DNA of 63,985 nucleotides, filler included, from Catajapyx aquilonaris (GCA_000934665.2; 3 parts of 3 records of this genome joined end to end with filler, not necessarily neighbours in it), one strand, 5' to 3'. Counted from the whole stretch's first letter, positions 12,286 to 43,352 are shown. Notes: generated by a model from the sequence alone, not told the origin. A program made the numbers and translations.

Positions 12286-12610
12286 GGTGACTATATTCAA
12301 CACCCAGCTCTGTACGAGCTGAGTCACAAGTATGGCTTGCAGGCTGATATGGCAGATTCAGCTCTGCCTCAGAAACTTGAGGAGCTCAAAGAGCATATTC
12401 GGAAGGAAATTCGCAAGGAGCTCAAGATCAAGGAAGGGGCTGAGAAATTGAAGGAAGTGACTACAGACAAGAAGTGCATGGCGGATGTTACTAGCATTGT
12501 GAAGAAGGCCAATGCTAAGCTTGCTGAACTGCATGCAGAGCTTCAAGAATTGGATTCTCAGATCATCCTCAGCCAAGGACAGGGGACGCCCACTCTCAGC
12601 AATGGACAAG
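12286..12610 (+). CDS. Pkn: Protein kinase N (PKN/PRK) internal exon encoding the HR1a Rho-binding repeat; rest of gene not found in this contig
   Basis: Translates GDYIQHPALYELSHKYGL...LEELKEHIRKEIRKELKIKEGAEKLKEV...LQELDSQIILSQG, matching the insect Pkn N-terminus/HR1 as remembered. Acceptor tttcag| at 12285 (phase 0); donor AAG|gtattt at 12611 (phase 1). Confidence 0.92.
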
Positions 12611-21401: not shown

Positions 21402-22839
21402 CCCCCAACATGCGTGATCAAATCGTGCCCAGTGCGGGATACGTAACTGGCAGTGCGAAAATGCATAATTGGGCGATTTGGGCGTCCGGTTGTGCGGCAA
21501 CTATTGTTACGTCACGTTTTGGGGGGTGTCGTGACTGAGCGAGATGGTCCGATTTGCAGAAACGCACTATTTGTGCATGGGCCCCGTTAGTACGGGGTGT
21601 CTACGGGACATCTGAACTATCCTTCTCCTCGGTTTAAAAAAAAAAAAATGAAAGAAAAACAAGGAGGACCTGGGGTATGGCTAGTGACAGGTCTTGACGT
21701 CATGGATTCGTCACGCTGTGGCAATACGTCGCGATTTAAATCGCGCGAAAAGCGGATGCTCCTGAATAACGGGAATGTCGTGTCCTCTCTGGGGTGAAAC
21801 GGAGAGTGCGAAATGAACAACATATGACCTATTATCGCGCCTCGGCATTGTTTTCCTTTTTTTATTATCTGCCGACCTTTCATAATAATAACAACACATT
21901 TTTTTTTTTTTTTTTTTTTTTTGTAGGCCGCAGACCGATCGGGAATAGAATTGGGTCGTTTATAGGGAAGCGACCCAGAATGGGTGGTAGTTTTTACTAT
22001 GGCTCGTATAGCGCATGGGGGAATGTGGGTTGGGTTCAGTGGGAAAGGTTGGGTGTAGTAGGGGAATGAAAGAGGGGAAAGGGGAATTGAGGGTGGGGTG
22101 TAAAGGGGGCTTATGGGAACCGGGATTTGTAACCAGTGTGTATGTGTACCTGCATGGTCGGATGGGTGAGTGGGTGGGGACGGGGTGGCGGTGTTGCCAC
22201 GTGCAGGGTCGGGAGGTGGGGTAGAGAGGGGGTCTGGTGGAAGAGGGGGGGGGGGGACGATCGATCGTTGGCAGGCAGATGTGGGGGTGTGGAGGTAGGG
22301 GTCGAGGGGGTGGTGGGATGGCCGGGTGTGAGAGGGTCTTGAGGGGGTGGCAGGCGGAAAACTGGGAGGGATGTGAATGAGCCCGCGGGCCACCCCGAGG
22401 CCAAGAGATGAAATAAAAAAAAGAGGTCTGCCCAAGAGAAATGTGCAAATGAGACTGTTCCTCCGAGAATGGGTTCTAGGATAGAGGAATAGAGCAGGGG
22501 GTGATTGTGGGAGGGCGGGTGGGTTGCCATCCCTACGCCCCCCCCCTCCCCATTGCCATCCCACCCCTCACCCCTCCCTGTCCCTCTCCCCTACCTCCCA
22601 CTTTGATCCAGCCATCCGGGGCTTGGTGAAGCCCAGGCAATCCGGGCTGTGGCTCTGCTACGGGCAACTCTCTGGTTGAAAACCCTCTTCCTCCCCGGGT
22701 ATCCCTCTGCAGCATCCGCAGCATTCCAGTCCCGTATACCCGTCCATCCAGTCTGTCCATCCGTGGGGAAAGAGCAGGGGAGGAGGAGTGGGAGGATTGG
22801 GGTGTGTGGGGAGAAGAGTTTGAAGACGAAGAGGAGGAG

Positions 22840-23211
22840 ATGGGTCCATGGCCGCGAGTGAGGGAGAAAAGACGCAGGAAGGATCCTCTGGAGCATCCTC
22901 CGATGCAATGGCCCGGCGGGAGCGGTCCGGCGGGCGGTGGTAGTGAGGGCTTGGGAGGCGGTACCCACATCGGTACCGCCGGTGGTGGCATGATGATAAA
23001 CACCTGCAACGTGGCTCTTGCAGGTGCCTTGGAGGAAGAGGAGGGGCGCGAGAGAGAGACTCTCTCCGGTAAGCAGAGGCACCAACTCAAGCACCGGGAG
23101 CTTTTCCTCTCGAGGCAGGTGGAGACCCTCCCCGCTACGCACATCAGAGGAAAGTGCTCCGTTACGCTGCTCAACGAGACCGAGTCTCTACTCTCCTACC
23201 TGGGAAAAGAC
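22840..23211 (+). CDS. MTA1-like: MTA exon A (BAH C-terminal part); 5' boundary uncertain (ATG 22840 or internal acceptor at 23024)
   Basis: [44 protein letters not shown]; donor GAC|gtgagt at 23212. Confidence 0.85.
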
Positions 23212-26200
23212 GTGAGTATATGGCATGTCATGTGGTTTGCCGTTTGAATCCGCCGCGCTTTCTTTTCAGTTTTTAAATATATATTTGTAGGCCTATATCT
23301 TACGTGGTGGGGGTCTTCCCGAATTCTTATATCGGGTAGCGGACAAGGTTGGGGCCAATCGGATTGCAGAGTTTCGCTTCCGTCGCGGGGTGGTTGGGTG
23401 GGGGATTTGGCCAATGGCGGATGTTGGGGTAGGGCGAGAAATAACTGGGATCGAGAGTTGGTAATAAGTCAGGGTAGATAGCGGAGTAAGCAGGTTCACC
23501 AAGGTTTTTTTTTCTTTCTTTTTTTTCTGTCTCTCAATCTCCCTCCACTACCCCTCCCTCACCCGCGCACACAATTTTTTCCCTTGCGCCGGCAGTTCCT
23601 TCGACTTGATGTTGCAATATAAGGAAAGAAACTCCAACAGACTTGCGTTAGTTTACTCCTGCTGAATAAATTTGTAGTATCATGTGGGCATGTGGAGGGT
23701 TTTTTTTAGTACTGATGGTTGAGGGGGATTAATGCAATTGCTCATTTGCATTACATTTGTCAGTATTCCATTCTAGGGCCACTTGACTAGTCTCTCAGAT
23801 ATGACATCATTTTGTCCTGCATGTAAATAATGGAAGGATATTTACTGTGCATGATGTACAGTGCGGAAATTTTGTATTTCTTGAAATAAAGGATTTTGGT
23901 TCTGAGGGACCTTGCATGTGGTTGTGACTTTTCTCCATTCTCATTTCGTCCTATTTCATTGGGTTTGAAAATGTTTTTACATAAGTTGCTGGATGGCACT
24001 ATAGCTGGCAATGGATTGAAACCCTAGGTCAAGGGATTGACAAGGGTGAGAAAGTTGTGCAAATTGATGGACCCTAGCATGTACAGGGTGGTGCAAATTC
24101 GTGGGTCGTTTTTTTATAACTGATATTGCCTGAAGTAGTTATTTTTTTGTAGCTTCTTGTGCTCCTAACCAGATGCCCCTTTCTATAGCAGCTGCTATAT
24201 TCAACCCCCTGGGAGTAATGGGGAACCTGGATTGGCGCATAACAAGCTACACCAAAATCACTCCTTCGGGTGATATCAGTTATAAAGAATGACCCATGAA
24301 TTTAGAACACCCTGTATATACAAAAACACAAACCATCATGAAAATTTCCTATGAAAGGGGTAGTCCATGATGGAGACCCAATCAAATAACAAAAGTCGGC
24401 TTGAAAATATGTCACACATCAATTGGGTGGCATTCAATTATTTCATATAACTCATACTAGCAATTCAAAAGCAATTTTTAAATTGTAAACCCCAAGCAGT
24501 CACAATCTAAGCATAACAGTAGCATGTCACCAGATATGCATGTGTACACTGGCTTTAGTGAATCCACATGGTTGGCACTCAACATCTGCATCACTGCTGC
24601 TTCATAAACATGAGTGCCAAGCAATACCAAGGAACCACAAGAATGACATGCTTCCTCATTATCTCACAGGACCCCATTCATAAACTTGGGAGTGCTGATC
24701 AGGTGTTTGCAGGGCACTCAACATGACACACATTTTGAATGATCCTGTACAAACAGCTTGACAAAAGCCACAGACTGTAAAGACTACCGAAATACAGGGT
24801 GTTCCAAGCATGCAGGTCACTTTAGCTTTAGAATGTGGAATATTTTCACCCAAAGTTGTCGTTTTTTTTGTGCAACTGCTTTGGGCGATATTAGTGATAA
24901 CTAAAAATGACCCTGATACTCATAACACCCTGCATAATACTAGCCTATGACCAGACTGGCACATGTACTATTGGGTTCAAATACTTTTGGCCACTTTATC
25001 CTGGTCTTGAAGCAATCTTTCGCACAGACCCCACGTTAAGGAGGTGTGTGTGTGTGAAGGGTTGCTTCAAGACCAGGATAAAGTGGCCAAAAGTATTTGA
25101 ACCCGATAGTACGCTAGCGCACATGACAGCACTTGACGTGAAATGCATAGGCATCCGAAATCCACGGATGCTCAAGTTCGTTATATAAAATGGCATAGTG
25201 TTTGCATATAACCTACACACATCTGCTCATGCACTTTAAATTGTCTCTAGATTAATTGAGGCGCTCAGAGAAAAACGGCATATCCCAACCGGAGTTCATT
25301 TTGAGATAAACGGCTTTTTGTGTTTCAAGAGAATAGGATTTTTCATTGCAGACCAATTTTACAAGGGGAATATGTGAGCTTTGGCATATCCCAATTCATT
25401 TGGGACTTCAGCACATGAAAGGCAGATGGCAGGAGAGTACAAAGGTACTACAATCTCAAAATCAGAAGTCGGTTGGGATATGCCTTTTTTCCTCTGAGCG
25501 CCTCAATTATAATACCTAATAAATGCAAATGATATGTAAATAGTTGCACTGAATTGTTTAGAGATTAATGACAAGAAAAAAGTATTTAAATGTTAAGTAG
25601 GCCTACATATGAAACTATTGTAGACCTAATTGCATAGTACATGTCAGCAACAACTTAACATAACTTATGTATAAGGATCTGTGAAATGGCAGGAGACTAC
25701 AACTGGGTATGCCTATGCATTGCTTCATTTGCATGGATTCAGCATAGTGCTAGGCACATGGAAAATTCAAGTTTTTCTATGGTTGATCCACCAATGTGAA
25801 TGTGGAGGGCAATATTTAGTTGAGGTTCAAGATGAAGGACATCCAAGACACAGCTGTCTTGGATGTCCTCCATCTTGAACCTCAACTAAACATTTCATTA
25901 ACCACAAACAAGCAACCACAATCTGGACATGTATTTTTTGTGCAAATCTAGATGAAAATGTACCCTTCAGGTTTTTTATTTGAGGTATCACTGATGAAAG
26001 TGGATGTTATTCACATTGCTGTCAGCCATACTGTTCCCATGATGCTAAGTCACAAAATTTTGAGCCATGGACAGTAACTTCTGCATACAGGCAATGATTG
26101 TACTGGTATTACCATGTTCCAAAACTGAATGGCCCCACAATTCTATTTATACTGAATGTATTCCATAAGTATCAGGGTCATTTTTAGTTATCGTTAATAT

Positions 26201-29200
26201 TGCCCAAAGTAGTTATTTTCATGCACTTTTGCACCTCGATTCATATGCCCAATTATTCCCAGATAGTCTAATATAGCAGTTGCTATATAATAATATGGCA
26301 CCTGGATCCTGGGTGAAGAAAGCTGCAAAAAGAAACTTCAAACTTTCGTATAATGAAAGTTGACCTGCATACTTGGAACACACCCTGTATGAGTACCATT
26401 GCTGGTGTGGAATAGGGACCCTTGGCATATTTCTTGCTGGACTCTTGATAAATGATAACTCCATTACATACCATGTGAGAACATTGTTGGTACCAACATT
26501 ATGTAAACTAATGGTGCATAAGGTTCAGTTTGTGGTAATTAAAAATGGTTAAGTTATCCTGGTAAAAATAATTGAGTGACAATGTACATTTAAAAAATCA
26601 GTTTTTTTTCTGACGGTTTTTTCATAGTTGTAGAATATTGCTACATCAGCCACTCATCATTGTAAAATTTGCTTTGTTTTTCTGTGTTTATGAAACCAAC
26701 TTTAAGATCTCACACTGCTACACTTACGTAGAAGCTGAAATTTTTGTAATTGATGAACTGGGGAAAAATTCGAGCCTTTTCCTGAAAGAGAGAGTACTTT
26801 TGGATATGGTTGGATATTGTAGCTAGTTATATGCCTGCATTATGTGCTTTGAAATATTTTCCAGTTACTAAAAAAAAAGTCAACTGAGTGATTAGTTGCC
26901 AGTAAATTATTAATTGTAATTAATTATTCCTGCTACCTGACTCAGCCCACTCTAGGTGATTGCCTCTAATCCAAAATAGAACTATTAAATTTGTTCAGTT
27001 GAGTTGCACAAAGAATATACATACGTGACCATTTGTGCCACTTGCTGACCACCACCTCCACCAAACCACAATTTATTGTGATAGCAACATTATTGGCTGC
27101 ACACATAAATGATTTTTCCTTTATTTGTAGAAAAATACACAAGAATCTTCAAGAAGTTCCAATGACAGGAAAAAGTGGCATGATCCATTTCTTCAGTCTT
27201 CACCAACCTCTCAGGTAAAAATGCAAGTTTTATCATGTTATGGAACTCTCAATGTCGTGAAACTGTTGTACTGGCATACAAGCTTTGACAGCAATAATTT
27301 GGTTATATGATGCATATTTTTTTTTTCTTCACTTGTTTGCGTGCAGTTGACAGCATGTAAATATGATGGAAAGATATTAGGAAAGATACATAGGTGGAAC
27401 AGATGGAGATAGAAACAAAGAGAGAAGAGGAGATAAAAAAGACTGGTGTGTGTGTGTATATGTCTGTCTTCTCCACAAAAAGACCTTTCCAGCTTGGTAG
27501 ACCCTACCAGTAGATGAAGTTACTGCTGATGTAGCTCTGGGAATTACTGGAGAAACACCAGCCCTCCCTCATGGAAAGGTGGGAGATACCATCAGGGGGA
27601 GGTACATTTGCATTGCCACTAGTAAGAGATGAGGAAGGTCCAAGTATAATGCATCTGCAACATATAGATAATTCTTGACTTATGCAACAGATGCATTTAT
27701 CATGACTACAATCCAAAGGTTGTTGACGTTCTTGGCAGTTGAGGTTTTTACCATCTAGGAGGTACAGGAGGTGATGCTACTTGTAAACTGTATGAAGAAG
27801 AAGGCTAATTTTTTCTCTCATGTGCAGTAATTGCACTTTACATTATATGAGATCCATAGCTGCTAGTGACAACTAAGAGTGGCCTTTTCCACAATTACAA
27901 TTCAGTGAGGAAGAAGTACCTGATCTGTAGGGAAGCCTAATATTGCTTAGAGGTAACAACAGATATGACTCCACAGTACTATGACCCTCACGATGTTTAT
28001 AGGTAGTGCTTATTGTAAACATTGGGTCTGTGATATTTTGCCTTGAGGGGAGGGAGGCCTGTAAAAGTGTGCCTGATGTAGGTGTGTGGAGGCAGTCCCC
28101 AACTTACATAAGTGAATCGTTCCACAAACCTTTATGTAAGGCAAGTTTTGCTCCAAGCCATGTTTTATAATATACTGTACAGAATATTCTGAAACCACAA
28201 CACTTGTACCAGGACATGGGTCCTACACCATTTTTATTAGTGTATCAATGTGGTTTTATGGTGCCGGCACCATTACTGTCTGTTTTGTGAGCTGAAGTTC
28301 AAGGAACATTACTGTGGCTTTGCCAACACATAATTTATCAAATGACAGCAGGACTGGTGACTTGGGACCACGCAAGGGTTGTGGTTTCAGAATATTGCTA
28401 CTTGACCAGTTTGTTCCATGAATTCAATGAATTTTTACTCGTGTTTTAAGTAAGTCCTGATCTATGTAAGTTGGGGACTACCTGAATTAGGTTGAAAGGG
28501 ACATCCTTTCAGGGTCTGAATGAAATTTTTTTGACAATGTGCATTTTAATGCAGATTTTTGAGGCTGAGAGTTAAAAGGGGGCTTTATAGTTGGCTTGTT
28601 TTTTCTAAGTAGAATGTTTTTGCTTCTGGATTATTTGGCATATGATTTGACAAGGTATTTGTCTTTTATAGAAATCTTCTGTCATTAGTAATACACTAAG
28701 GTCAGGATGCACCATCACAAGTTTCACTAGAAACCATCAGTGGTGCAACCTGGCCTAATTTTCAAGTTGTTAATGATGTCTGGAGTCAGGGTTCCAGCCT
28801 TCTTTTGTAAAGGTATTGATGTATATGCCAGACTTTATTGCTTAGGAAAGTTACATTCTGAAATATATCACCTTTAAGACAATGTATTGTGTGGCCAACA
28901 GAATGATATAAATACCAAGTATTTTGTTTGAATTAATTTATTTGCCTGTTGAGTACTTTTGGTACAAGTTTTGGTGTAGTTTTTTTAATGGGCTTGTCTC
29001 ACCTGCCACTAATGTAGCATTTTAACTATCCATAGGACACATTCTTTTATTCGCTGGTGTACGACCCACAACAGAAGACCCTTTTGGCTGATCGAGGGGA
29101 AATAAGGGTAGGCAGTCGCTACCAGGCTGAAGCAACTCCTCTCCTGGCAGAGGGTGAGCCTGACCCCAGGGGTGGGCAAGAGCTGGAAACTCTAGTGTGG

Positions 29201-32200
29201 ACTCCCCACCATGGTCTGTCTGACCGGCAGATAGATCAATTCTTGGTCATTTCTCGGTCAGTAGGCACCTTTGCTAGGGCACTTGATTGCTCCAGTTCAG
29301 TCAAGCAGCCTTCCTTGCACATGAGTGCTGCTGCAGCTTCCAGGGATGTCACTCTGGTGAGTTGAGAGAGTATTCATTGAATATTATGCATATTTCGTAG
29401 CTTAAAGTGGGTTGCATGATTGATGGCTGATTGATGTTATTCACATGGGATCAACACTTTTACTGAATTTACTAACAATCATGCTATCAGCCCTTAATAT
29501 GAAGCTATTATCAGAGGGAAAATGCAACTAAAACCAAATGTACACATCTGCTTGTATATCCCTGGAAATTGTGCACTGTTCCGGTCTCAAATCCTTTTCA
29601 AATAATATTAATTTCTAATTGCATTATGTGCAAAAATACATATCATCTGATGTGACGCAGCACAATTTTACCAATGATAGCTTCTTGTCTCTAGCATTAT
29701 TTCATTAGGAGTTTTTCGGTAAATATCTATTCAAGCTGAATTGGAGGTGGGGCCAAAAAAAATCTGAAATTGCATCTTTTGCCTTTACCGTCATCAACCA
29801 AGTGTATTAATTTTAATTGCAACTTCTTTTTACTCATCTAGTTTCATGCAATGGACACCTTGCATGAACATGGGTACAACTTAGCATCAGCATTAAGCTC
29901 CCTGGTTCCCTCAACGGGCCCGGTGCTATGTCGAGATGAAATGGAGGAGTGGTCTGCCTCAGAGGCTAACCTCTTTGAGGAGGCACTTGAGAAATATGGG
30001 AAGGATTTCAATGACATTCGTCAGGATTTTGTGAGTTCGCTATTCGTCAAGTTTTTTGTTTCTTTCATTATCCTATTTACCAGGACTGATGGCTGAATCC
30101 TTTTTCATGCTAACAACCACTGATTTATTTCAGCTGCCATGGAAGACCCTGAAGAACATCATAGAGTATTATTACATGTGGAAAACAACTGATCGTTATG
30201 TTCAGCAGAAAAGGGTCAAGGCAGTTGAGGCTGAATCCAAGCTCAAGCAAGTCTACATTCCCAACTAGTGAGTACTTGCTTTGTTGCAATGTGTCATAAG
30301 ATTTATTTTATCTATCTATCTATCTGTCTATTTATTTATTTACTTCCCCTAGTTTTCTCCCTACAGGGAAAAATAGCCATACACATAATAATACAATGAG
30401 TCAACATAATTGATTCCATAATTTAACAGGTGTAGCTTTGTTGATAACTATTTCATATTAACATTTTAATTGTTTATCTTTTAATTGTTGAGGATAACAG
30501 TTTCTAAATTTAAATTACATCAATTGTGTTGGACAATGTCCAGTATGGTGGAGCATTTTAGGACATGTGGTGTAGTCATATGGCTATTATACCCTGTAGT
30601 TCCATAACAGTATACATAATTGAGGCGCTCAGAGGAAAAACGGCATATCCCAACCGACCTCTGATTTTGAGATTGTAGTGCTTTTGTACTCTCCTGCCAT
30701 CTACCCTTCATGTGCTGAAGTCCCAAATGAATTGGGATATGCCAAAGCTCACATATTCCACTTGTAAAATTGGTCTGCAATGCAAAATCCTATTCTCTTG
30801 CAACCCAAAAAGGCGTATATCTCAAAATGAACTTCGGTTGGGATATGCCGTTTTTCCTCTGAGCGCTTCAATTATCATTGCATGGATTTGCAGAACTTTG
30901 TTTTGCCCCCAAGTTTACTCATTATGGATATCATGAAGTCAAGGAACTGCAGCCAAACTTAAAAGTTAACTGAAAATATAGACTGGTAGCATGCACACTA
31001 ATTGTTAGAAGAGGCACGAATGGAAGAATCCATCATTGAACATAAATGAAGCAAAATATTTTTTTTTCTCCATTGAGGGCCTGCACATATGTTTATGCAT
31101 AAATCCATGTGATGCCATGTACTTCTGATGAAAAGGTGAAGTCAGACTGAGATGCTTCATTTTCTTGTGTTGCAATTACACTGTTGCAGTAAGGTCTTGC
31201 TTTTGTCAGAAGCATATAAAGCAATGTGCTGCTTCCAAATGTGTGCATGCCATAAGAGAGACCAGAGGTTGTGTGAGAGTCAATCTTTGGTAAAGATACG
31301 ATATGTTGTCCCAGTGAAGTAAATGGTAAAATATTATGTTTTAGGTACAGCATTACACTTGTGTACGTGTCATAAGACAAGTCAATGAAACATGAGCACT
31401 ACGGGTGGAATTTTCATCCTACTGCTAACATACAGCTAGCTACTGCTAGCCACTTCCAAGGGTCTCCACCCGCAATTAGCAGTGGCATGGATTTTTTCAC
31501 GAAAATTCCATTTTTAGCAGAAAGCCTAGCAGGCGCTAAGCAGCAGTGCTGACAAGTCACTGCTCACAGAAAAGGCGAAAATTCCACCTTATGTATTTAT
31601 AAATTAACTCTTGTTTAATATTTGCTAGAGGGTCAAATTGAGCATGGTAATGGAAGTTATAATATTTTTCAACCATAATTTCTTACATTCTCTTACTTAG
31701 TGTATTAATACCATGTAATGCTGTCACGTTTCATGAGAAATGTTCCACTTTGATGATTTTAATTTGTACCTTATCAAAGTTAGAGTCAAGCACCTTTTCA
31801 TTTCTCTTACATATTGATATCTCACCAATGACTCATTGCAAAACGTGTGCCACTACACAAAATTAAGCTTCATTAAAAACCTTGGAGAATGCATTGCCTG
31901 CTAAAGTTAGTAACCCTACCCAAGTGGCAGGTGTTTTTTGGATGCAAAAATTGTTTAAAATGTAGGGATATAAAATTACTCCCATCTGTGCAGCAAGGTG
32001 GTGTCGATGAAGTTACACTGGATATGTTAACCATATCCATATTGGTGATGTAAAATGTACAAAGTTCAAGGGAAGGGCTGTGAAAGAGCGAAAATTTGTG
32101 GAAATAGTCTCTTCTTATCATTCTATGACCAAAAAAAAGTTTGTATGTGACAATTTTTTTTCAAGTAAATTAAGGTAGGTGTCCCAGTGATCGACACCAG

Positions 32201-35200
32201 AGACTTGGAACCTAAATAACAAGAGAACGTGGCAATATTGAGTGGAAATGAGACATCTGGCATAATTTCACATCCCTTTGGGGCTGCCTCCTGCCTGATC
32301 ACCATGTGTTCACCATTTGTGATTAAGTTATGCTAAGCCAACATGGCGTAAAACTTACCTTTCCCTGATGATATTGACACAACAGCAGTAAATACAGGAA
32401 GGGTGTCGATTACTGGGACATGAGTGGTGTCGATTACTGGTGCACTTGCACACCTGCATATTTTAAAACTTGACTCAAAATTAACATGTTTAATGGGGCA
32501 CGAATATGCACTGGATGAAAGAGAAAGTCTCAACGATTCGAACTATATTTTTTTTGAGGATTTCTTAACTAATTCCTATGGAAAGAGTGTCCGACGTGAG
32601 TTTTTTCCCCTTAACGTGTCTACCACTGGAACACTTACCTTATAGACAATAATAAATCACCCCATGTTGTACAGTGATGGAAATTAATGGAGAAGCATAA
32701 GTATCACCACCTGGCACAGTTTTTCCTTAGCGTGAAGCAGCTTCATGTAAAGGAAAAACTCTGCCAGGAGGCAATACTTGGGCTTCTCCATTAATTTCCA
32801 CCACTGTACCATGGAGTAGCAGGGAGGTTTGACTCTATTTTCTGCATCAAAAAGACTCGTTCCTAGTGAAAGGCAATTAGGCATGGCCAATGGCCACTTT
32901 CACCTGCCTCGCAATTAATGTGCAAACAATTCAAGCCACAAATCAATGCATCTGATTTTTCTAAAAGTTGGTACAGTAGTGTGATAACTGGAGGATTTAT
33001 TATGGCTAAACTCAATATGGCATTTGTGTTACAGCAATAAACCAAATCCAGCAGCCCTCAACACTGGAAAGGGAGTCCTCAATGGAGGAGCAGATGGAAC
33101 TGTTTCTGGAAAGGCTTGCGAGTCATGCTCCAGTAAGCATTTTCACCAATGATTTAATTGGTGAGATTTGATACTAACTCAGATTTTTATTTTTGCTGTA
33201 ATTAGTTACAGTGTCAAGCCAGTGGTACTCATGGGGTCCAACCAACCTGCAATGCCGCCTCTGCCACACATGCTGGATGTATTGGAAGAAGTATGGAGGG
33301 CTTAAGATGCCCTCACGCATTGCAGATGGTGATCCAATGGAGATCAAGAAGAAGCCAGGAAGCCTGTCAGATGAAGGTGCTTCATAATTTTGTTCTGTTG
33401 TAGGTGTTTCTAGAATATAAATGGTGGTAGAGTCATGTTTAGATATCCTCCATTAACTTTTCTCTTTTTGTCTCAATATTTGTTTATCACACAAGTATTT
33501 TTGAGGAAAGAATCACAACAGGATTTGCAGTTTCTGTGCATGCATGTTTACTGTAGATATTCTGTATATCTAAGATGCCACTTTCCCACCTGACATAATG
33601 TATAATTCTCTACCACACTTTAAAGTTGGAAGTAGTCGAAAAGAGAAATGAGCATGGGTGTTCACGTATTGTGTGCCAGGCTTGCAATGCTCTTTTGATG
33701 TGTTTCAGAGGGAGCAGGTGGTGTTGCAGAACGTGTGGTGGGACCCTTTACATCCCACCGGCCACACCGCTGTAGTGTGAGTGGATGTGGGAAAGAGTTC
33801 AAATTGAAAACACAGCTGGTTCGTCATTATGCTACCTGTCATGGGTTGGCCCTCCGCTCTGGGTCTCCTCGTCCCTTGATGAAGACGCGCACTGCCTTCT
33901 ACCTGCACACCACACCTTTGACCCGGTTGGCACGCAGGCTGTGCTCCTCACTTCTAGCACCACGCCATGCTGCCAGAGCCCCTTTTGCTCCAGTAAACAT
34001 CCCTGCCATCAAACAGGAGTGTCAAGCACAACTGGCTTCCAAGGCACCTGCTGAGCTCCGGACCCTGCTGATGATGTATCCCAGAAGGGCCAAGCCAGTC
34101 AGAGGAGGAGGTGCAGGATGTGGAAGGAGTAGTGGAGGGGGAGGGTGCAGTGGTGGAGGAGGTTCAACGGGGGTGCCAGGTGCCGTATCAACCAATACGG
34201 AAGAGAGTCAGTCATGTTTTTTTATTTTTTTTGGTTGCACTGCCAGTTGGCCCTTTAATGCACATATTCTTCGATTCTGTTTTTATATGGGAAGAGGTGC
34301 AAGTGACGGAGATAAAAACTTTCTATATTTGTGAAATCATCTTAGTCCTTAGTGGGCTTATAGTGTGTACCATTTAAACTAGGTGAAATTTGCTACATAC
34401 TGAACCGTTAAAAGCATTTGTTGTATTGCATGTATGGAAGGAATGTACGTAGAAAACAGGACGGGGAATGTGCCAGTCACTGCTAATTGAACTGCAGCAG
34501 AATCTCAAGTTGGCTTCACACAAGTGTCTCTGGCACTAGCCCCTCACCCAATCCTTTGGATCCACCAATCTATGCTGGGCTGATCCAACCTTCACCTTGT
34601 CCCTCCACCCTTTCCCTAGTCCTTCGAAAAGTTTCTTCACTCTAACTTTAGCACTTAATTATGAAAAATCCTGGGATAGGAGGTGGTTTTAACATGCAGC
34701 AGCCAATGCTGCCCAAGTCATAAGGCCATAAGTAATGTCACATTTGTAGTGTACCAGTGCTGTATGCAAATTGTTCGTGGACTATGCTGTCAAAGTAACA
34801 TGGAACTTGGAAAGAAGGTAGTGTGGAGGTCTTATCTAGCAGCCTACTGCTATCCAGGTGGGGAGATTAAGGGCTGCCCTCTTGGAAGGAGAAACTACTG
34901 TGTGTAAACCCACCTCTGTGAGGCAGGCAGTTTTAACCCTTTGACAGCTGAGTTTTTTTGCCGTTTTTCTTGTTTCTTGAAAAAAAAATGTAGTAGGAGT
35001 GATATTAACGAAAAACAATATGCTCCAATATTTATCATTTTAACTCGTGGTGGTCCTTTTGAATATAAAATGCTGAAAAAATTTATCTACAGGGTGTTCC
35101 AGAAATTTTTTAAGTGAAATTAACATTAAGCTTAATTAAATTTATTAAAAATTTTCAAGTCGCTATAAAATTGTTACTATGGTTGCAAAATAATACTAAA

Positions 35201-38200: not shown

Positions 38201-40656
38201 TGATTGATAGGGAAATTGGTATGGAGCTATATTCCCCCTCAGTTTTCCTCTTATTGGAAGAAATTATAGGCATATTTTCTCCAAGTAAAATGTAGACAAA
38301 GTGTTTCCTGGGTACCATCCACTATGTCCCTTCCCTTTTGCTTGCACTGCTGTAACATAGTGCACATTATAGTAAATGATGTCATTTGAAACTTCAAGAG
38401 GCTAGGCACAAAAAGTGGTTTATATTGAAAAGAAAGTTATTCTGATTTTGATGGTTCTTTTAGCCCCACCAGTCAAGAGGCCTGCACCATCGTGGGACTT
38501 GGTGGCTGGTATGGGGATAGGACTGGGTGGAACTATGACCCTGGGCAGCCTTGGTGGAAGCAGAGGTAGTGGGGGTGGGGGTGTGCCAGTAGGAGGGACA
38601 GTTGGGGGTCTGTCATCAGCCTTGGGGCCCTCCCCTACCAGCTCCTTGGGCGGGAGGCCCATGCTCAACCACCTCAATGGTAAAGCCAAGGTGGCTGCTG
38701 TGGCAAGGCTTGGAGGTAGAAAACAGGTCATCTCGTGGATGGATGCCCCTGATGACGTCTATTTCCGCTCAACAGATGCTACAAGGTAAAATTGTCAGCC
38801 TTGGTTCTCAGGATTGCAGTTGTAATTTGTAGCCATATTTTAGTACCCATTTTTGTCATTTGGTGTAGCAAATGTTGCATGTATATTTTCAGTGTTGTAC
38901 AATGTTTCTGAGAAATAGTGAACCTCAGCCTCTTGCCTGCCAAATTGTCACAAGTGATATTGGAACCTCAAGTATTTCTTTGTGTGCATGTGTGGGGCAT
39001 AAGTGGATGTTTCTGAGACACCCTTTCTGAATGCTGATCAACTGAAGGATACCAAGGGCAGAGTAGTGAAAAAATTGCAATCGGACTTGAACAGATGAGA
39101 AGCTGACACTACATAACATTCATATTGTAGAGTGTGGCATCAGGGCATCATTCCAGGTGGAGTAGTAGTTAACAGCTTTTATTGAAATACATTCTACTCA
39201 TCTAGGAATTCCATTTAGATTTGTTGCAACATTTCTGCACAGATATTTAATATGGTGTCGTTTACTGCAGGGAGCTTTTGTAACCAACTTTTAGGTGGAG
39301 CTTATTACAAAAAGGATTTTTTTCCCCCCATCTCGATTTTTGTATAGTTAGATTCTAATTGGTGCAGCCAGAAGAGAAAATCAAAAGAAAGTAAACTAGT
39401 GTAGAGGTTAAGGATGACCTGGGATTGTCTGCCCAGGTTATGCACCCATTGATGCTCATCATGTAATAATTAAGAATGATTATTATTTCTCTAGAGGTCA
39501 CTAGATGGTACTTGGATAGCCCAGTTGAAAAATAGCACAAAATATTAAAGATCTTGATATTTGCATGTTTTAAATTCTGTGGGGAATTTTGAACATAAAC
39601 TACCCATTACATTATTTTCAGTGATGAAACATGAACTGTCCAAAAACAAGTCCAGGTTGCATCTCATTTGGATTTTCTCATAGTTGATTCAACCTGAATT
39701 TATGTACTTGATGCGTGAAATTGTTTACAAGAGAAAACAGCACCTTACTTTTTGAATTAAGGCTATATCAATATTTAGTGGTTGAATTGTACCAGCTGAG
39801 TAATGTGCACATGCTTTCAATTCAGTAAAATCTTGCCCCATTCTGCAACTGCTGCAATCAGATGTAGGTTTCTTCACTGAGAGTGAAGAGTGGATTTTCA
39901 TCCGGGTGGTAGCCTGGACCATTTTTTGTGGAGTATACTTTTAGGAGCTGACAGTGTTTTGATGTTTTAGTTATTACCTGCCGACATTTGCTTCAAAAAC
40001 ATCATCGGATATTGTAAGACTTATTTGGGGCAATTGCATGATATTAAATGTGGAACTTCGTCTCGACTAGTTAATGCACAGCTTATAAAAAGTTCAGAAT
40101 TTTTGCTCCTAAAATGTTCGCAGAATACTGCCACTGAAAGGAACTCGCATCACTTCTGCAACCTTCTTTCATGTATTACTGTTAATTTTTTAATTCTTCT
40201 AGTATCTTTGTGTACTCTCTTGCTTCTCTGCAGCTTGGTTCAGGGAATCTGCTAGCCACCTGAGAAACCAGTTTTCAGAATTTCAAAGAAGTTAGTAAGT
40301 TGTGCATGTGAATTACATTGCAAGCATAAATCAAGCAAGCAATAGTTGGACGTGTGACACTACTCCTTTGGGGGCACAACTGGCTTCTCAGGCAAGCTTG
40401 TTGCCATTGCTAGCCATTGCAGAAATGCTGCTACTCAAGGAAAGCGCCTTTTCCCATCCCCCCCTCCCGCAGAAAAATGAGGCGACAGTTGACAGCTGCC
40501 GAGCTGCGCAGGACGGCCCGAAAGCCATGGCGCAGAGTAGGTGGCTCCACCGTCAGCGGGTCAAGCATAGTTGGGGGTGGTGGCACTGGAGGTGGGGGAG
40601 GAGGTGGAGGGTCGTCAGGACCTCGTGGTGAAGACCCTGTTGTCGTTCTTGATTGA
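22840..40656 (+). CDS. MTA1-like: Metastasis-associated protein MTA1-like (NuRD subunit), spliced gene model of about 939 aa from ATG 22840
   Basis: join(22840 or 23024..23211, 29036..29356, 29842..30030, 30134..30267, 33035..33132, 33206..33376, 33709..34179, 35570..35918, 37430..37638, 38464..38785, 40473..40656). All introns GT-AG and phase-compatible. The N-terminal half of the BAH domain was not found in this contig. Confidence 0.93.
24084..24314. mobile_element. Tc1/mariner-type MITE
   Basis: TA|CAGGGTG...CACCCTG|TA with imperfect TIRs of about 70 bp. Confidence 0.75.
24968..25109. mobile_element. TA-flanked MITE
   Basis: ctattgggttcaaatacttttggccactttatcctggtcttgaagcaa and its near-perfect inverse, both ends flanked by TA. 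Confidence 0.8.
25155..25665 (+). mobile_element. Tigger/pogo-family non-autonomous fragment (MER2-like), split by a younger MITE
   Basis: aaatccacggatgctcaag...tatataaaatggcatagtgtttgcatataacctac...tctagatta // taatacctaata...atgtaaatagttg...aatgacaagaaaaaa resembles the MER2 consensus as remembered. Confidence 0.65.
25253..25509 (+). mobile_element. MITE family X, copy 1
   Basis: TIR attgaggcgctcagag(g)aaaaacggcatatcccaacc, TA flanks; second copy at 30617-30874. Confidence 0.85.
25815..25890. repeat. Hairpin with 36-bp arms and 4-nt loop
   Basis: tttagttgaggttcaagatgaaggacatccaagaca-cagc-inverse with one mismatch. Confidence 0.85.
28089..28484. mobile_element. Tigger-like MITE
   Basis: aggcagtccccaacttacata / tatgtaagttggggactacctg termini plus internal inverted aatattctgaaaccacaac. 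Confidence 0.6.
29036..29356 (+). CDS. MTA1-like: MTA exon B (BAH end and ELM2)
   Basis: catag|[31 protein letters not shown]...[33 protein letters not shown]|gtgagt. Confidence 0.95.
29842..30030 (+). CDS. MTA1-like: MTA exon C (ELM2 end and SANT)
   Basis: ctag|FHAMDTLH...[38 protein letters not shown]|gtgagt. Confidence 0.95.
30134..30267 (+). CDS. MTA1-like: MTA exon D (SANT)
   Basis: ttcag|[46 protein letters not shown]|gtgagt, phase 2. Confidence 0.95.
30617..30874 (-). mobile_element. MITE family X, copy 2 (inverted relative to copy 1)
   Basis: Internal sequence is the reverse complement of 25253-25509 with scattered substitutions. Confidence 0.85.
32171..32642. mobile_element. pogo-like MITE
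   Basis: taaggtaggtgtcccagtgatcgacac / gtgtctaccactggaacacttacctta termini; internal gtgtcgattactgg repeats. Confidence 0.65.
33035..33132 (+). CDS. MTA1-like: MTA exon E (start of GATA-type zinc finger)
   Basis: ttacag|(Y)[32 protein letters not shown]|gtaagc. Confidence 0.9.
33206..33376 (+). CDS. MTA1-like: MTA exon F (GATA-type zinc finger)
   Basis: (I)[38 protein letters not shown]; donor GAAG|gtgctt. Confidence 0.9.
33709..34179 (+). CDS. MTA1-like: MTA exon G (C2H2-like finger, R1 region, Gly-rich tail); 3' donor uncertain
   Basis: tttcag|...[26 protein letters not shown]...[22 protein letters not shown]...RHAARAPF; best phase-1 donor CAG|gtgccg at 34180. Confidence 0.82.
35570..35918 (+). 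CDS. MTA1-like: MTA exon H
   Basis: caaag| phase 1, Ser/Pro/Gly-rich then [12 protein letters not shown]...PTWLLPT...[16 protein letters not shown]; donor AG|gtaata phase 2. Confidence 0.85.
36084..37206. mobile_element. Fold-back DNA transposon remnant with CACTA-like start, carrying a nested MITE
   Basis: Inverted arms about 36257-36565 and 36720-37206; 36084-36370 is homologous to 50817-51110. Confidence 0.7.
37001..37160. mobile_element. MITE nested in the fold-back arm
   Basis: agtcggttagaggatttccttaccacatgagg...aacagaggt and inverse; arms about 58 bp. Confidence 0.75.
37430..37638 (+). CDS. MTA1-like: MTA exon I (poly-Ala14, [13 protein letters not shown])
   Basis: aacag| phase 2; donor G|gtatgt phase 1; both phases fit neighbouring exons. 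Confidence 0.82.
38464..38785 (+). CDS. MTA1-like: MTA exon J
   Basis: tttag|APPVKRP...[24 protein letters not shown], carrying the MTA W(I/M)DAPxDVF-like motif; donor AG|gtaaaa. Confidence 0.9.
40473..40656 (+). CDS. MTA1-like: MTA terminal exon K to the canonical stop
   Basis: cccgcag|[20 protein letters not shown]...EDPVVVLD*, comparable to the vertebrate MTA1 C-terminus KRAARRPY...EPIVIED as remembered. Confidence 0.9.
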
Positions 40657-41447
40657 CGCCTGGGGAGTGGCCACGCAGGGCTGCCAGGTGCAGACCACTC
40701 TGACTGCAGTGACGACGAGGATGTGGGAGAGCAGGAGCTAGTGGTGCCTGTGAGTACGAGTCCCACTCCGCGCGCCCGGACCAAGGCATAACTTATTACT
40801 TTGATTTAACTTTTATCTCATGCCCCATCCATCCCATCAGCCTGGATATTTCATCACTTCGTGGGCCTCCCCCAGTGAGCCTAATCCCTCCCTGCACCTG
40901 CTTACCACCCAGCCCCAATGGTTTTTACAACTACTCGGGTTCTGTTTCATTTGTGTGTGAGGGCAGAATAGATAAAAGACAAATTTCATTTTTTCTATAT
41001 GTGGGGAAGGGTGGTATGGGAGGGGGGGGTGTTCAAAGGTGGCCAGCTGGACATGTAGGGTTCGTTTCAGTGTTTTTTCCAGTAATTCCCCCGAGTAAAA
41101 GAAACAAACAGTACACAATAACGTGTATATGCACCTGATGTACATAAAAACAATGTGTTTTTTCCTCGAGAAAAAATTGCACACCCGTCTCTTTTTTTGT
41201 TTGTTTGTTTTTCTATCCACCTACCCCTTCTGCCCATCTTTTTTTTTTTTTTTTTTGTATTTACACAGACTATCCTTCAATGAAATTCCCCATGTCCTCC
41301 CTCCCAATCTGCGCCATCAACTCCCCATTCTCCACCCATTCACCTCCCTACCCCCCACTATTCCCCCTGCCCCTTTAATGCAGAAAATAAAGAAAAAAAA
41401 GTACTGTCTCTCTGTAACTTGCTACTTGTGCCCAAAATTTTTTCTAC

Positions 41448-41453
41448 AATAAA
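41448..41453 (+). promoter_or_regulatory. Candidate polyadenylation signal of MTA
   Basis: AATAAA about 0.8 kb downstream of the stop, followed by T/GT-rich sequence. Confidence 0.5.
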
Positions 41454-42972
41454 CATGCAAATTGGATCATCCACATCGTCTTTTTTAGTAGTGGTTTTAT
41501 TTCAGCATGTTATCATCATGTTCTTCATCCTGTTATTACAATTTTAGGATGCGATTATAAGCAATTTTAATAATTTTGCGTCAGGGATGAGAGCTGGAAA
41601 ACCAATAAAGCACTGGCCCAGTTTCTCTCTGGATCTCTATTTAACCCAAAGGAGCTATGGAAATGATAAAATATTGACATGTGTAAGGGACATTATTTAA
41701 GGCATGTAAGACAACTTTATTATGGAGATTAGACCTTCATAAATTGTCACCCTGAGCAGAACTGCCTGAAAAAGTTCCCTTTTTCATTTATTGATGCGTA
41801 GCAAATGATACAACATGGCAATGCCACAGCATGCACACCTGCTTTCTCAATGTCCTTGTCAAGAGCAGAAACATTTTTGTCCTTTGAGTAAGATAAGTTT
41901 GTGGTGTCATGTTCTATCAGTTTTGAATAATAGAAGGGATATCAACCTGTGAAGTAAATCCCATTTTCTTAAACATGAAATTGTGAATTTAAAGCTATAC
42001 TTGGGAAAAGACAATATGAAGCCAAACGAAGGCACAAGTTTCTTGTGTTAGAGGGGGTGCTTCCCCATTAGCTGTGACACTGGTCAACCAAGGGGAGCAG
42101 CTTCCCAGCGCGATGTGTAGAAAGCACTAATTCAAGACCTGACCGCTATGTTCGTCTTGAAGAGAAGCAGGCACATCAAGGTGAGATTTGGTGGTCAAGA
42201 CACACCAGGGACAGACCAAATGGATATTTGTAGTGCTGCAATACATTTTTATCAGGGCTCTTCTCAATGGGCAATGACAAGTTGACCTGCACCATTGTTT
42301 GGGGTTGTTTTTGATAAGGGTATCATTAGGATGTGCATTCCAAAGTGACTTAAGATAGGAATCCTCTTGCAGGCACCACTCTTCTGCTGCACTGTAAGAG
42401 ACAACTGACTCCAATCATGACAATCCTTTCGTTAACATATCACAAGATGGATATTTTCCAAATTCCCAGAGAAGAAAAAAAGTTACAGGAGCCGACTCCT
42501 AGTGCAACAGAGATAGCCTACGGTATATTTCTATGAAAAAATTCAAGCCTGTAATCCTGGTAATATAGAGGTTTGGTTTATTATCACTATCCAGGATGAT
42601 TTTCACTTGGACAGCAACACATATGATAATATTTTCACTCCGAATGTGACATATATGTGATGATTCTCGCTCTGATGATTTTATATTAACTAGTGATGCA
42701 AAACTGTCACTTGGCTCTGCACATCATGATTCTCTACACAAGTTTTACATACAGTCATGCCTTTAACCTTTGGGCAGTAGTGTATGCAAGGGAAAACCCT
42801 TATTGAATCTATCACAAACATTGACGTGTGGAAACTGAAAAATCCATCAATTCCATAACATATGTCATTGCCAACAATTTGAGTTATGATTATGATGGAC
42901 TTGGAGGTACAAAAATTCGACTTATGGAAGCCATTTTCGCAACCAATGCAGGCGCGGATCCAGGGGGGGGGG

Positions 42973-43072
42973 NNNNNNNNNNNNNNNNNNNNNNNNNNNN
43001 NNNNNNNNNNNNNNNNTTAATTAATTAANNNNNNNNNNNNNNNNNNNNNNNNNNNNNNNNNNNNNNNNNNNN
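42973..43072. other. Artificial contig-joining spacer (N44-TTAATTAATTAA-N44)
   Basis: Identical structure to the first spacer; preceded by a poly-G run. Confidence 0.97.
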
Positions 43073-43352
43073 GCAGCCCAGTCTTGTTTCAGTAATTTCT
43101 ATCCGTTACTTGGATCTTACTTTCCTTTTTTTTTACAATTCCGTAGGGAATTAGTTTTTGTGATAATTGGCATTTATGCAAGCAGAATGTAACTTATGTA
43201 AATGGATTCACTGACACAATTTTAAAAGCCTGGGAATATCATAAATGTTAGAATATAAAAACTTTCCAAGTGTGGTATGCCAGTTCTGTTCTATTATTAT
43301 TTTATTCTCACCTGAGTTCTTGTGTGGAAAACTTTGGTAACAGATCACGACG

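What the first reader, a model, noticed from the sequence alone, without database searches (positions are those of the whole stretch)
40654..40791. Candidate programmed stop-codon readthrough extending the MTA (NuRD) C-terminus by 45 residues
Seen: the stop after the conserved end EDPVVVLD is UGA followed by C. The same frame stays open for 44 codons (RLGSGHAGLPGADHSDCSDDEDVGEQELVVPVSTSPTPRARTKA) to a UAA at 40789-40791. GC-rich, coding-like composition runs to that second stop and then drops abruptly into AT-rich sequence. After an 8-nt spacer, GAGUGG (40665-40670) can pair with CCACUC (40695-40700); an alternative or crossing stem is CGCCUGG (40657-40663)/CCAGGUG (40684-40690). Established: UGA-C is the leakiest stop context, readthrough is common in insects, and 3' stimulatory structures often start about 8 nt after the stop. 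Inference: the extension would put an acidic CK2-like patch (SDDED) and a second hydrophobic core (LVVPV) behind the terminal SIM-like VVVLD, giving a minor MTA isoform with altered SUMO or partner binding.
Basis: partly seen in the sequence, partly recalled or inferred. Interest (0 to 1): 0.85.

Follow-up and report, generated by a model that had tools for sequence, protein, structure and literature searches.

The report
Likely leaky stop extending arthropod MTA
The chromatin-regulator gene MTA in this arthropod ends in a leak-prone stop codon followed by 44 in-frame codons, as its fruit-fly counterpart does, so a longer protein is probably made now and then, but nothing here shows this directly.

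Summary
The sequence facts hold. MTA's last exon ends ...EDPVVVLD, then TGA (40654-40656) followed by C, then 44 open codons to TAA (40789-40791). The strongest base-composition break of the exon plus 3'UTR falls at that second stop.

An open frame of this length is not rare: 18% of dinucleotide shuffles stay open. The proposed hairpins fold no better than shuffled sequence. Codon usage favours the readthrough frame only marginally (about 5-7% of open shuffles do as well).

The main support comes from other species. A 2026 preprint table lists Drosophila MTA1-like as a tier-1, conserved readthrough gene, with TGA-C directly after ...IVILD and a 126-nt extension. All 7 arthropod-type MTA lineages I could examine use TGA, and 5 of them use TGA-C. 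The extension peptides are unrelated.

The terminal motif corresponds to the validated C-terminal SUMO-interacting motif of human MTA1.

There were no RNA or ribosome data and no close relatives. The organism falls outside the sampled insects.

Verdict: probable (about 0.55) ortholog of a catalogued readthrough gene. The proposed RNA structure is not supported, and the SUMO/CK2 function is speculative.

The parts
40473..40653 (+). Last coding exon of the MTA (NuRD scaffold) gene: (R)[21 protein letters not shown], a Gly-rich insert, then EDPVVVLD
   Evidence: Translation. tblastn of insect MTA proteins reaches 40465/40471-40542. Alignment with 12 insect C-termini. A strong pyrimidine tract and CAG lie just upstream, at 40441-40472.
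40630..40653 (+). C-terminal motif EDPVVVLD: a hydrophobic core flanked by acidic residues, counterpart of the human MTA1 SIM DEPIVIED
   Evidence: 98 of 120 arthropod MTA proteins end exactly in [VILM][VIL][VIL]L[DE], and none carries residues after it. The human SIM is described in passages of PMC5356852.
40654..40657 (+). Stop codon TGA plus the +4 base C (UGA-C, a leak-prone context)
   Evidence: The same TGA-C occurs at the orthologous stop in Drosophila, in termite-like loci L006-L012, and in L015/16 and L019/28.
40657..40788 (+). 44-codon in-frame extension, RLGSGHAGLPGADHSDCSDDEDVGEQELVVPVSTSPTPRARTKA
   Evidence: Codon-usage log-odds are 0.651 in this frame against 0.275 and 0.276 in the other two. 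43 of 890 open dinucleotide shuffles score as high. The frame preference sits in the last 26 codons only.
40789..40791 (+). Second in-frame stop TAA, coinciding with the main base-composition change point
40665..40700 (+). Proposed hairpin (GAGUGG/CCACUC) 8 nt after the stop. It is present but not more stable than chance.
   Evidence: z = +1.04 and +1.15.
40699..40710 (+). Weak candidate alternative acceptor CTCTGACTGCAG|T (exon start 40710). It would be in frame with the upstream exon and would encode ...S-DDEDVGEQELVVPVSTSPTPRARTKA.
   Evidence: The pyrimidine fraction is only 0.50. It could not be tested with reads.
40750..40755 (+). GTGAGT, a hexamer resembling a 5' splice site, in phase 0 after codon 31 of the extension
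   Evidence: Read. The exon side is CCT, not MAG. Its use could not be tested.
41386..41391 (+). First AATAAA after the stop (a second lies at 41448). No such signal lies between the two stops.

Best explanation
The MTA gene of this non-insect arthropod ends in a leak-prone UGA-C stop. This stop is the ortholog of the catalogued readthrough stop of Drosophila MTA1-like.

Proposed mechanism: on a minority of transcripts a near-cognate tRNA decodes UGA. Translation then continues for 44 codons to UAA (40789-40791). The product is an MTA isoform in which the C-terminal SUMO-interacting motif (EDPVVVLD) becomes internal and is followed by a disordered tail rich in acidic residues, Ser and Pro.

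Shown here: the stop, its context, the open frame, the composition break at the second stop, the orthology of the stop position, and the recurrence of TGA-C in other arthropod lineages.

Taken from a paper: readthrough of the fly ortholog.

Inferred: that ribosomes read through in this organism, that the extension is under selection, and any effect on SUMO or partner binding.
For: (1) TGA at 40654-56, C at 40657, 44 open codons, TAA at 40789-91.

(2) Preprint PMC13278127, Supplementary Table T3, row for FBgn0027951/FBtr0290206 (MTA1-like). It gives first stop TGA, second stop TAG, extension 126 nt, first-stop conservation 0.95 and extension protein identity 0.88. Conserved_SCR is 1, all three Ribo-seq classifiers are positive, and the score is 12, which is tier 1. 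Scoring and tiers were read in sections 6 and 26. 'Conserved SCR' means found by conservation across Drosophila. Table T9 shows ...ESQIVILD TGA C... in D. melanogaster, droEug2 and droAlb1, with related extension peptides.

(3) Stop contexts in metagenome loci found with an alignment of MTA C-termini. Counting the window and Drosophila, 7 of 7 arthropod-type lineages with the hydrophobic-acidic end use TGA, and 5 of 7 use TGA-C: the window, Drosophila, termite-like L006-L012, thrips-like L015/16, and L019/28. Extension lengths in these five are 44, about 42, 8, 30 and 47 codons.

(4) Codon usage favours the readthrough frame. The score is 0.651 against 0.275 and 0.276. 43 of 890 open dinucleotide shuffles reach the score and 64 of 890 reach the frame difference.

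(5) The composition change point lies at 40787-40789.

(6) Jungreis et al. 2016 (passages of PMC5100048) report that ancient readthrough stops are enriched for TGA and +4 C. They also report that orthologous extensions often show no visible similarity and differ in length, and that abundant readthrough is a pancrustacean trait.
Against: - No RNA, ribosome-profiling or peptide data for this organism could be used.
- No close relative was found, so conservation of the extension could not be tested. The best MTA identity in the R1-domain exon is 65-70%.
- No predicted protein of 185-2000 aa carries the extension.
- The open frame alone is expected in 18-30% of shuffles, and a 141-codon frame is open elsewhere in the same UTR.
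- The codon-usage signal is marginal and is absent from the first 18 codons (0.491 against 0.468).
- The hairpins are no better than chance.
- The extension shows no significant similarity to those of Drosophila, L015 or L019.
- Termite-like loci have TGA-C but only 8 codons behind it. Two lineages lack the C: L001 has TGA-T with a tandem stop, and L002/L017/L018 have TGA-A.
- MTA is not found in Data S1 of Jungreis 2016 by name or identifiers.
- The organism lies outside the sampled insects, so it might belong to a group without abundant readthrough.
Confidence: 0.55

Rival explanations
1. Termination is ordinary. The 44 codons are a chance open frame in a GC-rich start of the 3'UTR, and any readthrough is unselected background leakage without function.
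For: - 890 of 5000 dinucleotide shuffles and 1514 of 5000 mononucleotide shuffles of the segment stay open.
- Other frames of the same region are open for 56, 141 and (minus strand) 124 codons.
- The first 18 codons show no frame preference.
- The hairpins are not beyond chance.
- No protein in the databases searched carries the extension.
- Extension peptides are unrelated between lineages, and termite-like loci have only 8 codons.
- Composition change points in relatives' UTRs fall at arbitrary places.
Against: - The fly ortholog's stop is a conserved, Ribo-seq-supported readthrough stop.
- TGA is kept in 7 of 7 deeply diverged arthropod lineages and TGA-C in 5 of 7. Neutral turnover of stop codons would not predict this.
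- The composition break lies within 2 nt of the second stop.
- Codon usage prefers the readthrough frame at about the 5-7% level.
Confidence: 0.3
2. The distal part of the segment is coding because it is reached by alternative splicing, not by readthrough. One example is use of the weak in-frame acceptor CTCTGACTGCAG|T (exon start 40710). That would replace the normal last-exon peptide with S-DDEDVGEQELVVPVSTSPTPRARTKA.
For: - The frame-specific codon signal is confined to the last 26 codons, which begin at 40711 (0.763 against 0.104 and 0.362), and is absent from the first 18.
- An AG in the right phase exists at 40708-09.
- Annotated insect MTAs do have isoforms with other C-terminal ends, for example P0037 and P0090.
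Against: - The candidate acceptor has a poor pyrimidine tract (0.50), whereas the used acceptor at 40472 is strong.
- None of the 120 arthropod MTA proteins listed has an acidic plus LVVP-type alternative end joined after the penultimate exon.
- The more obvious AGs at 40686-87 and 40692-93 are out of frame and run into TGA at 40701 (read).
Confidence: 0.08
3. The conserved TGA is decoded by another recoding route, such as selenocysteine insertion.
For: TGA is the stop in all 7 arthropod-type lineages.
Against: - No SECIS or any other Rfam family matched in 40300-42500 at E <= 1.
- 98 of 120 annotated proteins end exactly at this position.
- The fly case is classed as readthrough.
Confidence: 0.01

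Closest known systems
Drosophila melanogaster MTA1-like (FBgn0027951) stop-codon readthrough, listed in Supplementary Tables T3 and T9 of Makarova et al. 2026 (preprint, PMC13278127)
   Same: It is the orthologous gene. The stop lies directly after the conserved hydrophobic-acidic end (IVILD against VVVLD). The context is TGA followed by C. The extension is of similar length (126 nt against 132 nt). The tail is of low complexity and likely disordered.
   Different: The fly case rests on conservation across Drosophila genomes and pooled Ribo-seq; here there is neither. The peptides show no visible similarity (fly PSPASTLTASAASATKLLSSS... against RLGSGHAGLPGADHSD...). The window's organism lies outside the sampled insects.
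Abundant conserved readthrough of Pancrustacea (Jungreis et al. 2011, recalled; Jungreis et al. 2016, PMC5100048, passages read)
   Same: TGA and +4 C, a long gene encoding a nuclear regulator, an extension of tens of codons, and fast divergence of the extension peptide between distant clades.
   Different: The defining evidence for that class, a protein-coding substitution signature in the extension, could not be computed. MTA was not found in the 687-row Data S1 of the 2016 paper.
Vertebrate UGA-CUAG readthrough (Loughran et al. 2014; seen only in a search listing) and the tobamovirus-type stop-CARYYA motif (recalled)
   Same: A UGA stop with C at +4.
   Different: The bases after the stop are CGCCUG, which is neither CUAG nor CARYYA.
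Readthrough stimulated by a 3' RNA structure starting about 8 nt after the stop (viral and some fly genes; recalled, and mentioned in passages of PMC5100048 and PMC13278127)
   Same: A 6-bp stem can be drawn starting 8 nt after the stop.
   Different: The fold is weaker than most shuffles. No relatives were available to test covariation. No Rfam family matches.
C-terminal SUMO-interacting motif of human MTA1, DEPIVIED, core I711/V712/I713 (Paget et al. 2016, PMC5356852, passages read, citing Cong et al. 2011)
   Same: EDPVVVLD has the same layout at the same terminal position: acidic residues, Pro, three hydrophobic residues, then an acidic end.
   Different: SUMO binding has not been tested for any arthropod MTA here. 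The human gene is not known to me to be read through. The vertebrate-like loci L023, L024 and L027 have TAG-A.

Membership tests
Conserved (programmed) stop-codon readthrough of the pancrustacean type | Leak-prone stop context (UGA, C at +4) | tested here: met
   TGA at 40654-56 and C at 40657.
Conserved (programmed) stop-codon readthrough of the pancrustacean type | An in-frame open extension of at least about 10 codons, ending at a second stop inside the 3'UTR and before the poly(A) signal | tested here: met
   44 codons to TAA at 40789-91. The first AATAAA is at 41386. The length alone is not beyond chance.
Conserved (programmed) stop-codon readthrough of the pancrustacean type | Conservation of the first stop codon and its context among relatives | tested here: met
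   TGA in 7 of 7 and TGA-C in 5 of 7 arthropod-type lineages. The lineages are few, most are unnamed, and no genome-wide background rate was available.
Conserved (programmed) stop-codon readthrough of the pancrustacean type | A protein-coding evolutionary signature in the extension (PhyloCSF or dN/dS, indels in multiples of three) | not testable with these tools
   No close relative's DNA was found. A single-sequence proxy, codon usage by frame, is marginal.
Conserved (programmed) stop-codon readthrough of the pancrustacean type | Ribosome footprints or peptides beyond the stop | not testable with these tools
Conserved (programmed) stop-codon readthrough of the pancrustacean type | Orthology to a catalogued readthrough stop | tested here: met
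   Fly MTA1-like is tier 1 with Conserved_SCR = 1. The stop follows the same terminal motif.
Structure-stimulated readthrough | A stable or conserved RNA structure shortly 3' of the stop | tested here: not met
   z = +1.04 (107 nt) and +1.15 (54 nt); 171 of 200 and 182 of 200 shuffles fold as well. Covariation is not testable.
UGA-CUAG / stop-CARYYA motif readthrough | The specific hexanucleotide after the stop | tested here: not met
   The sequence after the stop is CGCCTG.
MTA family (NuRD scaffold) | BAH, ELM2, SANT, GATA-type zinc finger and MTA_R1 domains in order | tested here: met
   Pfam finds BAH, ELM2 and MTA_R1 in window ORFs. tblastn of five arthropod MTAs gives 8 to 11 colinear segments each between 22984 and 40542. 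SANT and GATA were not scanned separately with Pfam.
C-terminal SIM of MTA1 | A hydrophobic core (V/I)x(V/I)(V/I) flanked by acidic residues at the C-terminal end | tested here: met
   EDPVVVLD against DEPIVIED. 98 of 120 arthropod MTAs end in this motif type.
C-terminal SIM of MTA1 | Non-covalent SUMO binding that depends on the core | not testable with these tools
   Needs a binding assay.

The most novel reading that the evidence does not exclude
The leak-prone UGA-C directly behind MTA's C-terminal SUMO-interacting motif is an ancient feature, shared from flies to non-insect arthropods. In this reading, what is conserved is the act of reading through, not the peptide. Readthrough turns a terminal SIM into an internal one and adds a lineage-specific disordered tail. 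In this lineage the tail carries a second SIM-like core preceded by acidic residues (SDDEDVGEQE-LVVPV). A minor NuRD scaffold isoform would then have tandem SIMs and changed binding to SUMOylated partners.
Probability: 0.2. Interest if true: 0.65.

Novelty: new member of a known kind. Interest (0 to 1): 0.42.

Why it matters
MTA is the scaffold of the NuRD deacetylase and remodelling complex. In humans its extreme C-terminus is a functional SUMO-interacting motif.

If a share of MTA is made with a tail behind that motif, one gene would give two scaffold forms with different partner binding. The fly ortholog is listed as a readthrough gene only in a supplementary table, and no paper found by my searches discusses it. 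The preprint's main text does not mention MTA1.

A leak-prone stop kept at this position in distant arthropods would make MTA a good case for asking what an "ancient" readthrough is for when the added peptide is not conserved. It would also correct annotation, because all 120 listed arthropod proteins stop at or before the motif.

Tried and rejected
**Searches and calls that gave nothing**
- Sequencing runs: no RNA holder was listed; only one run of unknown kind (X1) holds the stretch.
No splice, depth or end data exist here.
- Own genome: not held.
- Earlier notes near this place or on look-alike stretches: none.
- Extension peptide against predicted proteins of 185-2000 aa: 13 word candidates, none scored. 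Shorter proteins were not searched.
- Exhaustive HMMER search with the 105-aa last exon plus extension: 0 hits. This is uninformative. The conserved parts are short, and close relatives are hidden behind representatives at 50% identity.
- Scan of the bacterial and archaeal genome collection for contaminating host contigs: 206 pattern matches, none confirmed.
- Rfam on 40300-42500: 0 matches.
- Cluster members of fly MTA1-like: the 15 members listed (of 22 read) are 844-891 aa, and no readthrough isoform is among them.

**Literature**
- Two searches for readthrough together with MTA found 0 papers.
- Jungreis 2016 supplement: 2 of 3 files searched, no MTA1, CG2244, FBgn0027951, FBtr0290206 or 'metastasis'.
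- Dunn 2013: the 2 small held files have no hit; its large tables may not be held.
- Jungreis 2011 is not held.
- I did not trace which list gave the fly gene its Conserved_SCR flag.
- I did not interpret the reporter-screen counts for the fly MTA1-like fragment in Table T9.

**Ideas considered and set aside**
- Hairpins as stimulators: rejected as unsupported.
- Acceptors at AG 40686-87 and 40692-93: out of frame, and both hit TGA at 40701.
- TE or repeat origin of the segment: no second copy in the window.
- Resemblance of LVVPVSTSPTP to the end of a springtail MTA (P0061, LVVPPPRSPMP): 7 of 11 identical, E = 0.55 for the single comparison, so not significant. A second springtail-like protein gave nothing there.
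- Composition change-point analysis on 9 relatives' loci: not aligned with either stop, so it is a weak test.
- Pairs L019/L028 (2 differences) and L015/L016 (0 differences) are too alike to show selection in their extensions.


Full report
**What is in the sequence.**
The window carries an MTA (NuRD scaffold) gene on the + strand.
- Pfam finds BAH, ELM2 and MTA_R1 in ORFs at 22630-23244, 29036-29362 and 33699-34331.
- tblastn with five arthropod MTA proteins gives 8 to 11 colinear segments each, between 22984 and 40542.
- The penultimate exon ends AAG|GTAAAA at 38785. The last exon starts at 40473, behind a strong pyrimidine tract and CAG.
- The last exon reads (R)[21 protein letters not shown], then a Gly-rich insert, then [12 protein letters not shown].
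- TGA follows at 40654-40656, then C at 40657. Then come 44 open codons (RLGSGHAGLPGADHSDCSDDEDVGEQELVVPVSTSPTPRARTKA) and TAA at 40789-40791.

**Is it more than chance?**
- The open frame by itself is not. 1514 of 5000 mononucleotide shuffles and 890 of 5000 dinucleotide shuffles of the 132 nt stay open. Another frame of the same UTR is open for 141 codons, and the minus strand for 124.
- The hairpins are not. The 107-nt and 54-nt stretches fold at -34.0 and -18.4 kcal/mol, and 171 of 200 and 182 of 200 shuffles fold at least as well.
- Two single-sequence features do lean towards coding.
  - The first is codon usage. I built a table from 757 codons of this gene's own exons against intron trinucleotides. 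The extension scores 0.651 per codon in the readthrough frame, against 0.275 and 0.276 in the other frames. Real exons, left out in turn, score -0.08 to 0.49. Among open dinucleotide shuffles, 43 of 890 reach the score and 64 of 890 reach the frame difference.
  - The second is composition. The best single change point in 40473-41400 is at 40787-40789, the second stop, with a score twice that at the first stop.
- Caveats apply to both.
  - The frame preference lies wholly in the last 26 codons; the first 18 have none.
  - GC-rich open frames on the minus strand also score 0.45.
  - In 9 relatives' loci the change point matched neither stop.

**The C-terminus.**
Of 120 arthropod MTA proteins found with the R1-domain exon, 98 end exactly in [VILM][VIL][VIL]L[DE]. 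None has residues after that motif. The stop position is therefore old and fixed.

[quoted passage not shown] Mutating its core, I711/V712/I713, abolishes binding to SUMOylated HIC1 (passages of PMC5356852). EDPVVVLD has the same layout at the same place, so "SIM-like" is a fair reading.

**The fly ortholog.**
The preprint by Makarova et al. 2026 (PMC13278127) combines pooled Ribo-seq classifiers with conservation. I read its outline, sections 6, 7, 22 and 26, passages, and rows of one supplementary workbook that was cut when stored.
- Table T3 lists MTA1-like (FBgn0027951, FBtr0290206). The entries are: first stop TGA, second stop TAG, extension 126 nt, first-stop conservation 0.95, extension protein identity 0.88, Conserved_SCR = 1, all three classifiers positive, and score 12, which is tier 1.
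- "Conserved SCR" genes are those found earlier by conservation across Drosophila.
- Table T9 gives the sequence. ...ESQIVILD TGA C CG TCG... appears in D. melanogaster, droEug2 and droAlb1. The extensions are related and differ by in-frame changes (PSPASTLTASAAS..., PSPANTLASSAAVAAS..., PSTAETSAKISAAAAA...).
- The fly gene thus has the same leak-prone TGA-C, directly behind the same motif, with an extension of nearly the same length.
- The main text does not mention MTA1.
- I did not find MTA in the 687-row Data S1 of Jungreis et al. 2016, so I could not trace the source of the flag.

**Other lineages.**
An alignment of 12 insect C-termini plus the window retrieved 30 metagenome loci. I dropped 15 from the count.

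| Loci dropped | Reason | Stop context |
|---|---|---|
| L003, L004/5, L023, L024, L027 | non-arthropod-like F-RRAARKPWR type | TAA-T, TGA-A, TAG-A x3 |
| L013, L022, L025, L026, L029 | a group with a short, different end | TAA-T, TGA-A x3, TAA-A |
| L014 | repetitive tail without the motif | TGA-C, 2 codons |
| L020/21 | in-frame TAA inside the conserved motif | not applicable |
| L030 | no MTA-like end | not applicable |

The remaining 15 loci form five arthropod-type lineages.

| Lineage | Stop context | Extension (codons) |
|---|---|---|
| Termite-like, L006-L012 | TGA-C | 8 |
| Thrips-like, L015/16 | TGA-C | 30 |
| L019/28, a distant arthropod ending ...VGMVE | TGA-C | 47 |
| L001, insect | TGA-T, then TGC, then TGA | 1 |
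| L002 with L017/18 | TGA-A | 17 and 28; the two peptides share only their first two residues |

With the window and Drosophila, 7 of 7 lineages use TGA and 5 of 7 use TGA-C. I have no genome-wide background rates. From general knowledge, TGA-C is among the rarer contexts.

Jungreis et al. 2016 report three relevant things (passages). Readthrough stops shared by flies and mosquitoes are enriched for TGA and +4 C. Their extensions often show no visible similarity and differ in length. Abundant readthrough is a pancrustacean trait. The unrelated peptides here therefore do not argue against a shared leaky stop. The small number of lineages means this is suggestive, not proof.

**The organism.**
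I built a quick maximum-likelihood tree of 31 rows: the window plus 30 of the 120 proteins, chosen to span orders. The careful search did not finish.
- The window's MTA lies outside the 23 insect rows, whose clade has support 97.
- It groups weakly (83) with two springtail-type rows.
- It lies inside the clade opposed to chelicerates (100).
- No crustacean or myriapod row was present, so I can say only "non-insect mandibulate arthropod, probably pancrustacean".

Earlier unchecked notes on the same genome report several other stops whose fly or mosquito orthologs are catalogued readthrough genes. They also report one post-stop frame judged to be chance. I use them only as context.

**Explanation and rivals.**
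- Most likely (0.55): a minority of ribosomes decode this UGA and add 45 residues, as catalogued for the fly ortholog.
- Chance frame with ordinary termination (0.30) remains quite possible. Every within-window signal is marginal, and conservation could not be tested.
- An alternative in-frame acceptor at 40710 (0.08) would explain why only the distal 26 codons look coding. The site is weak, and no annotated arthropod isoform looks like its product.
- Selenocysteine is very unlikely: there is no SECIS or other Rfam hit.
The motif is absent from the extensions of Drosophila, L015/16 and L019/28, so it would be lineage-specific at best.

**Verdict.**
This is a probable new member of a known class: an ortholog of a catalogued readthrough gene in a distant arthropod. 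The stop context is real and recurrent. The RNA structure is unsupported, and the function is untested.

Noticed in passing
window 40750-40755: GTGAGT, a strong hexamer of the 5' splice-site type, sits in phase 0 after codon 31 of the extension. The exon side is CCT, not the usual MAG. It could mark a 3'UTR intron or a spliced continuation of the extension.
   Followed up: no
window 40540-40625: The last MTA exon carries a Gly-rich insert ([31 protein letters not shown]) between the RKPWR motif and the terminal motif. It is absent from all 12 insect sequences aligned.
   Followed up: partly
window 40738-40770, and protein P0061 residues 755-765: LVVPVSTSPTP in the extension resembles LVVPPPRSPMP, the last residues but one of a springtail MTA that does not end in the usual VVxLD motif. 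7 of 11 residues are identical, E = 0.55, which is not significant. The springtail rows are the window's weak sister group in the tree.
   Followed up: partly
L006-L012, from the stop to the second stop (e.g. L008 3108-3138): In the termite-like loci, CTGACA, which overlaps the TGA stop, and TGTCAG, just before the second stop TAA, are exact reverse complements. They bracket the 8-codon extension. The differences among the 7 loci in this stretch are all CpG transitions.
   Followed up: no
L001 2451-2459: This insect MTA transcript ends ...VVHLE TGA TGC TGA. That is a tandem-stop arrangement of the kind the fly preprint uses as a no-readthrough control, in contrast with the TGA-C lineages.
   Followed up: no
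L020 252-335 and L021 3004-3087: Two loci have an in-frame TAA inside the conserved KMRRQLTGT*LRRAARKPWR motif and a different end (KLKSGLTE). They may be a pseudogene or a diverged copy of the termite-like MTA last exon.
   Followed up: no
window 12241-12645 (+): An ORF with an HR1 repeat (Pfam PF02185, E = 1e-11) lies upstream of MTA on the same strand. It is probably an exon of a PKN- or rhophilin-like gene.
   Followed up: no
window about 42970-43075: A run of N, an assembly gap, lies about 1.6 kb downstream of the MTA poly(A) signals. It shows as X in the translations.
   Followed up: no
window 40800-41380: The 3'UTR behind the second stop is strongly pyrimidine-rich (GC skew down to -0.76) and has a T run of about 20 at 41240-41258. 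A 141-codon open frame (40713-41138) scores as non-coding (0.008 per codon).
   Followed up: partly
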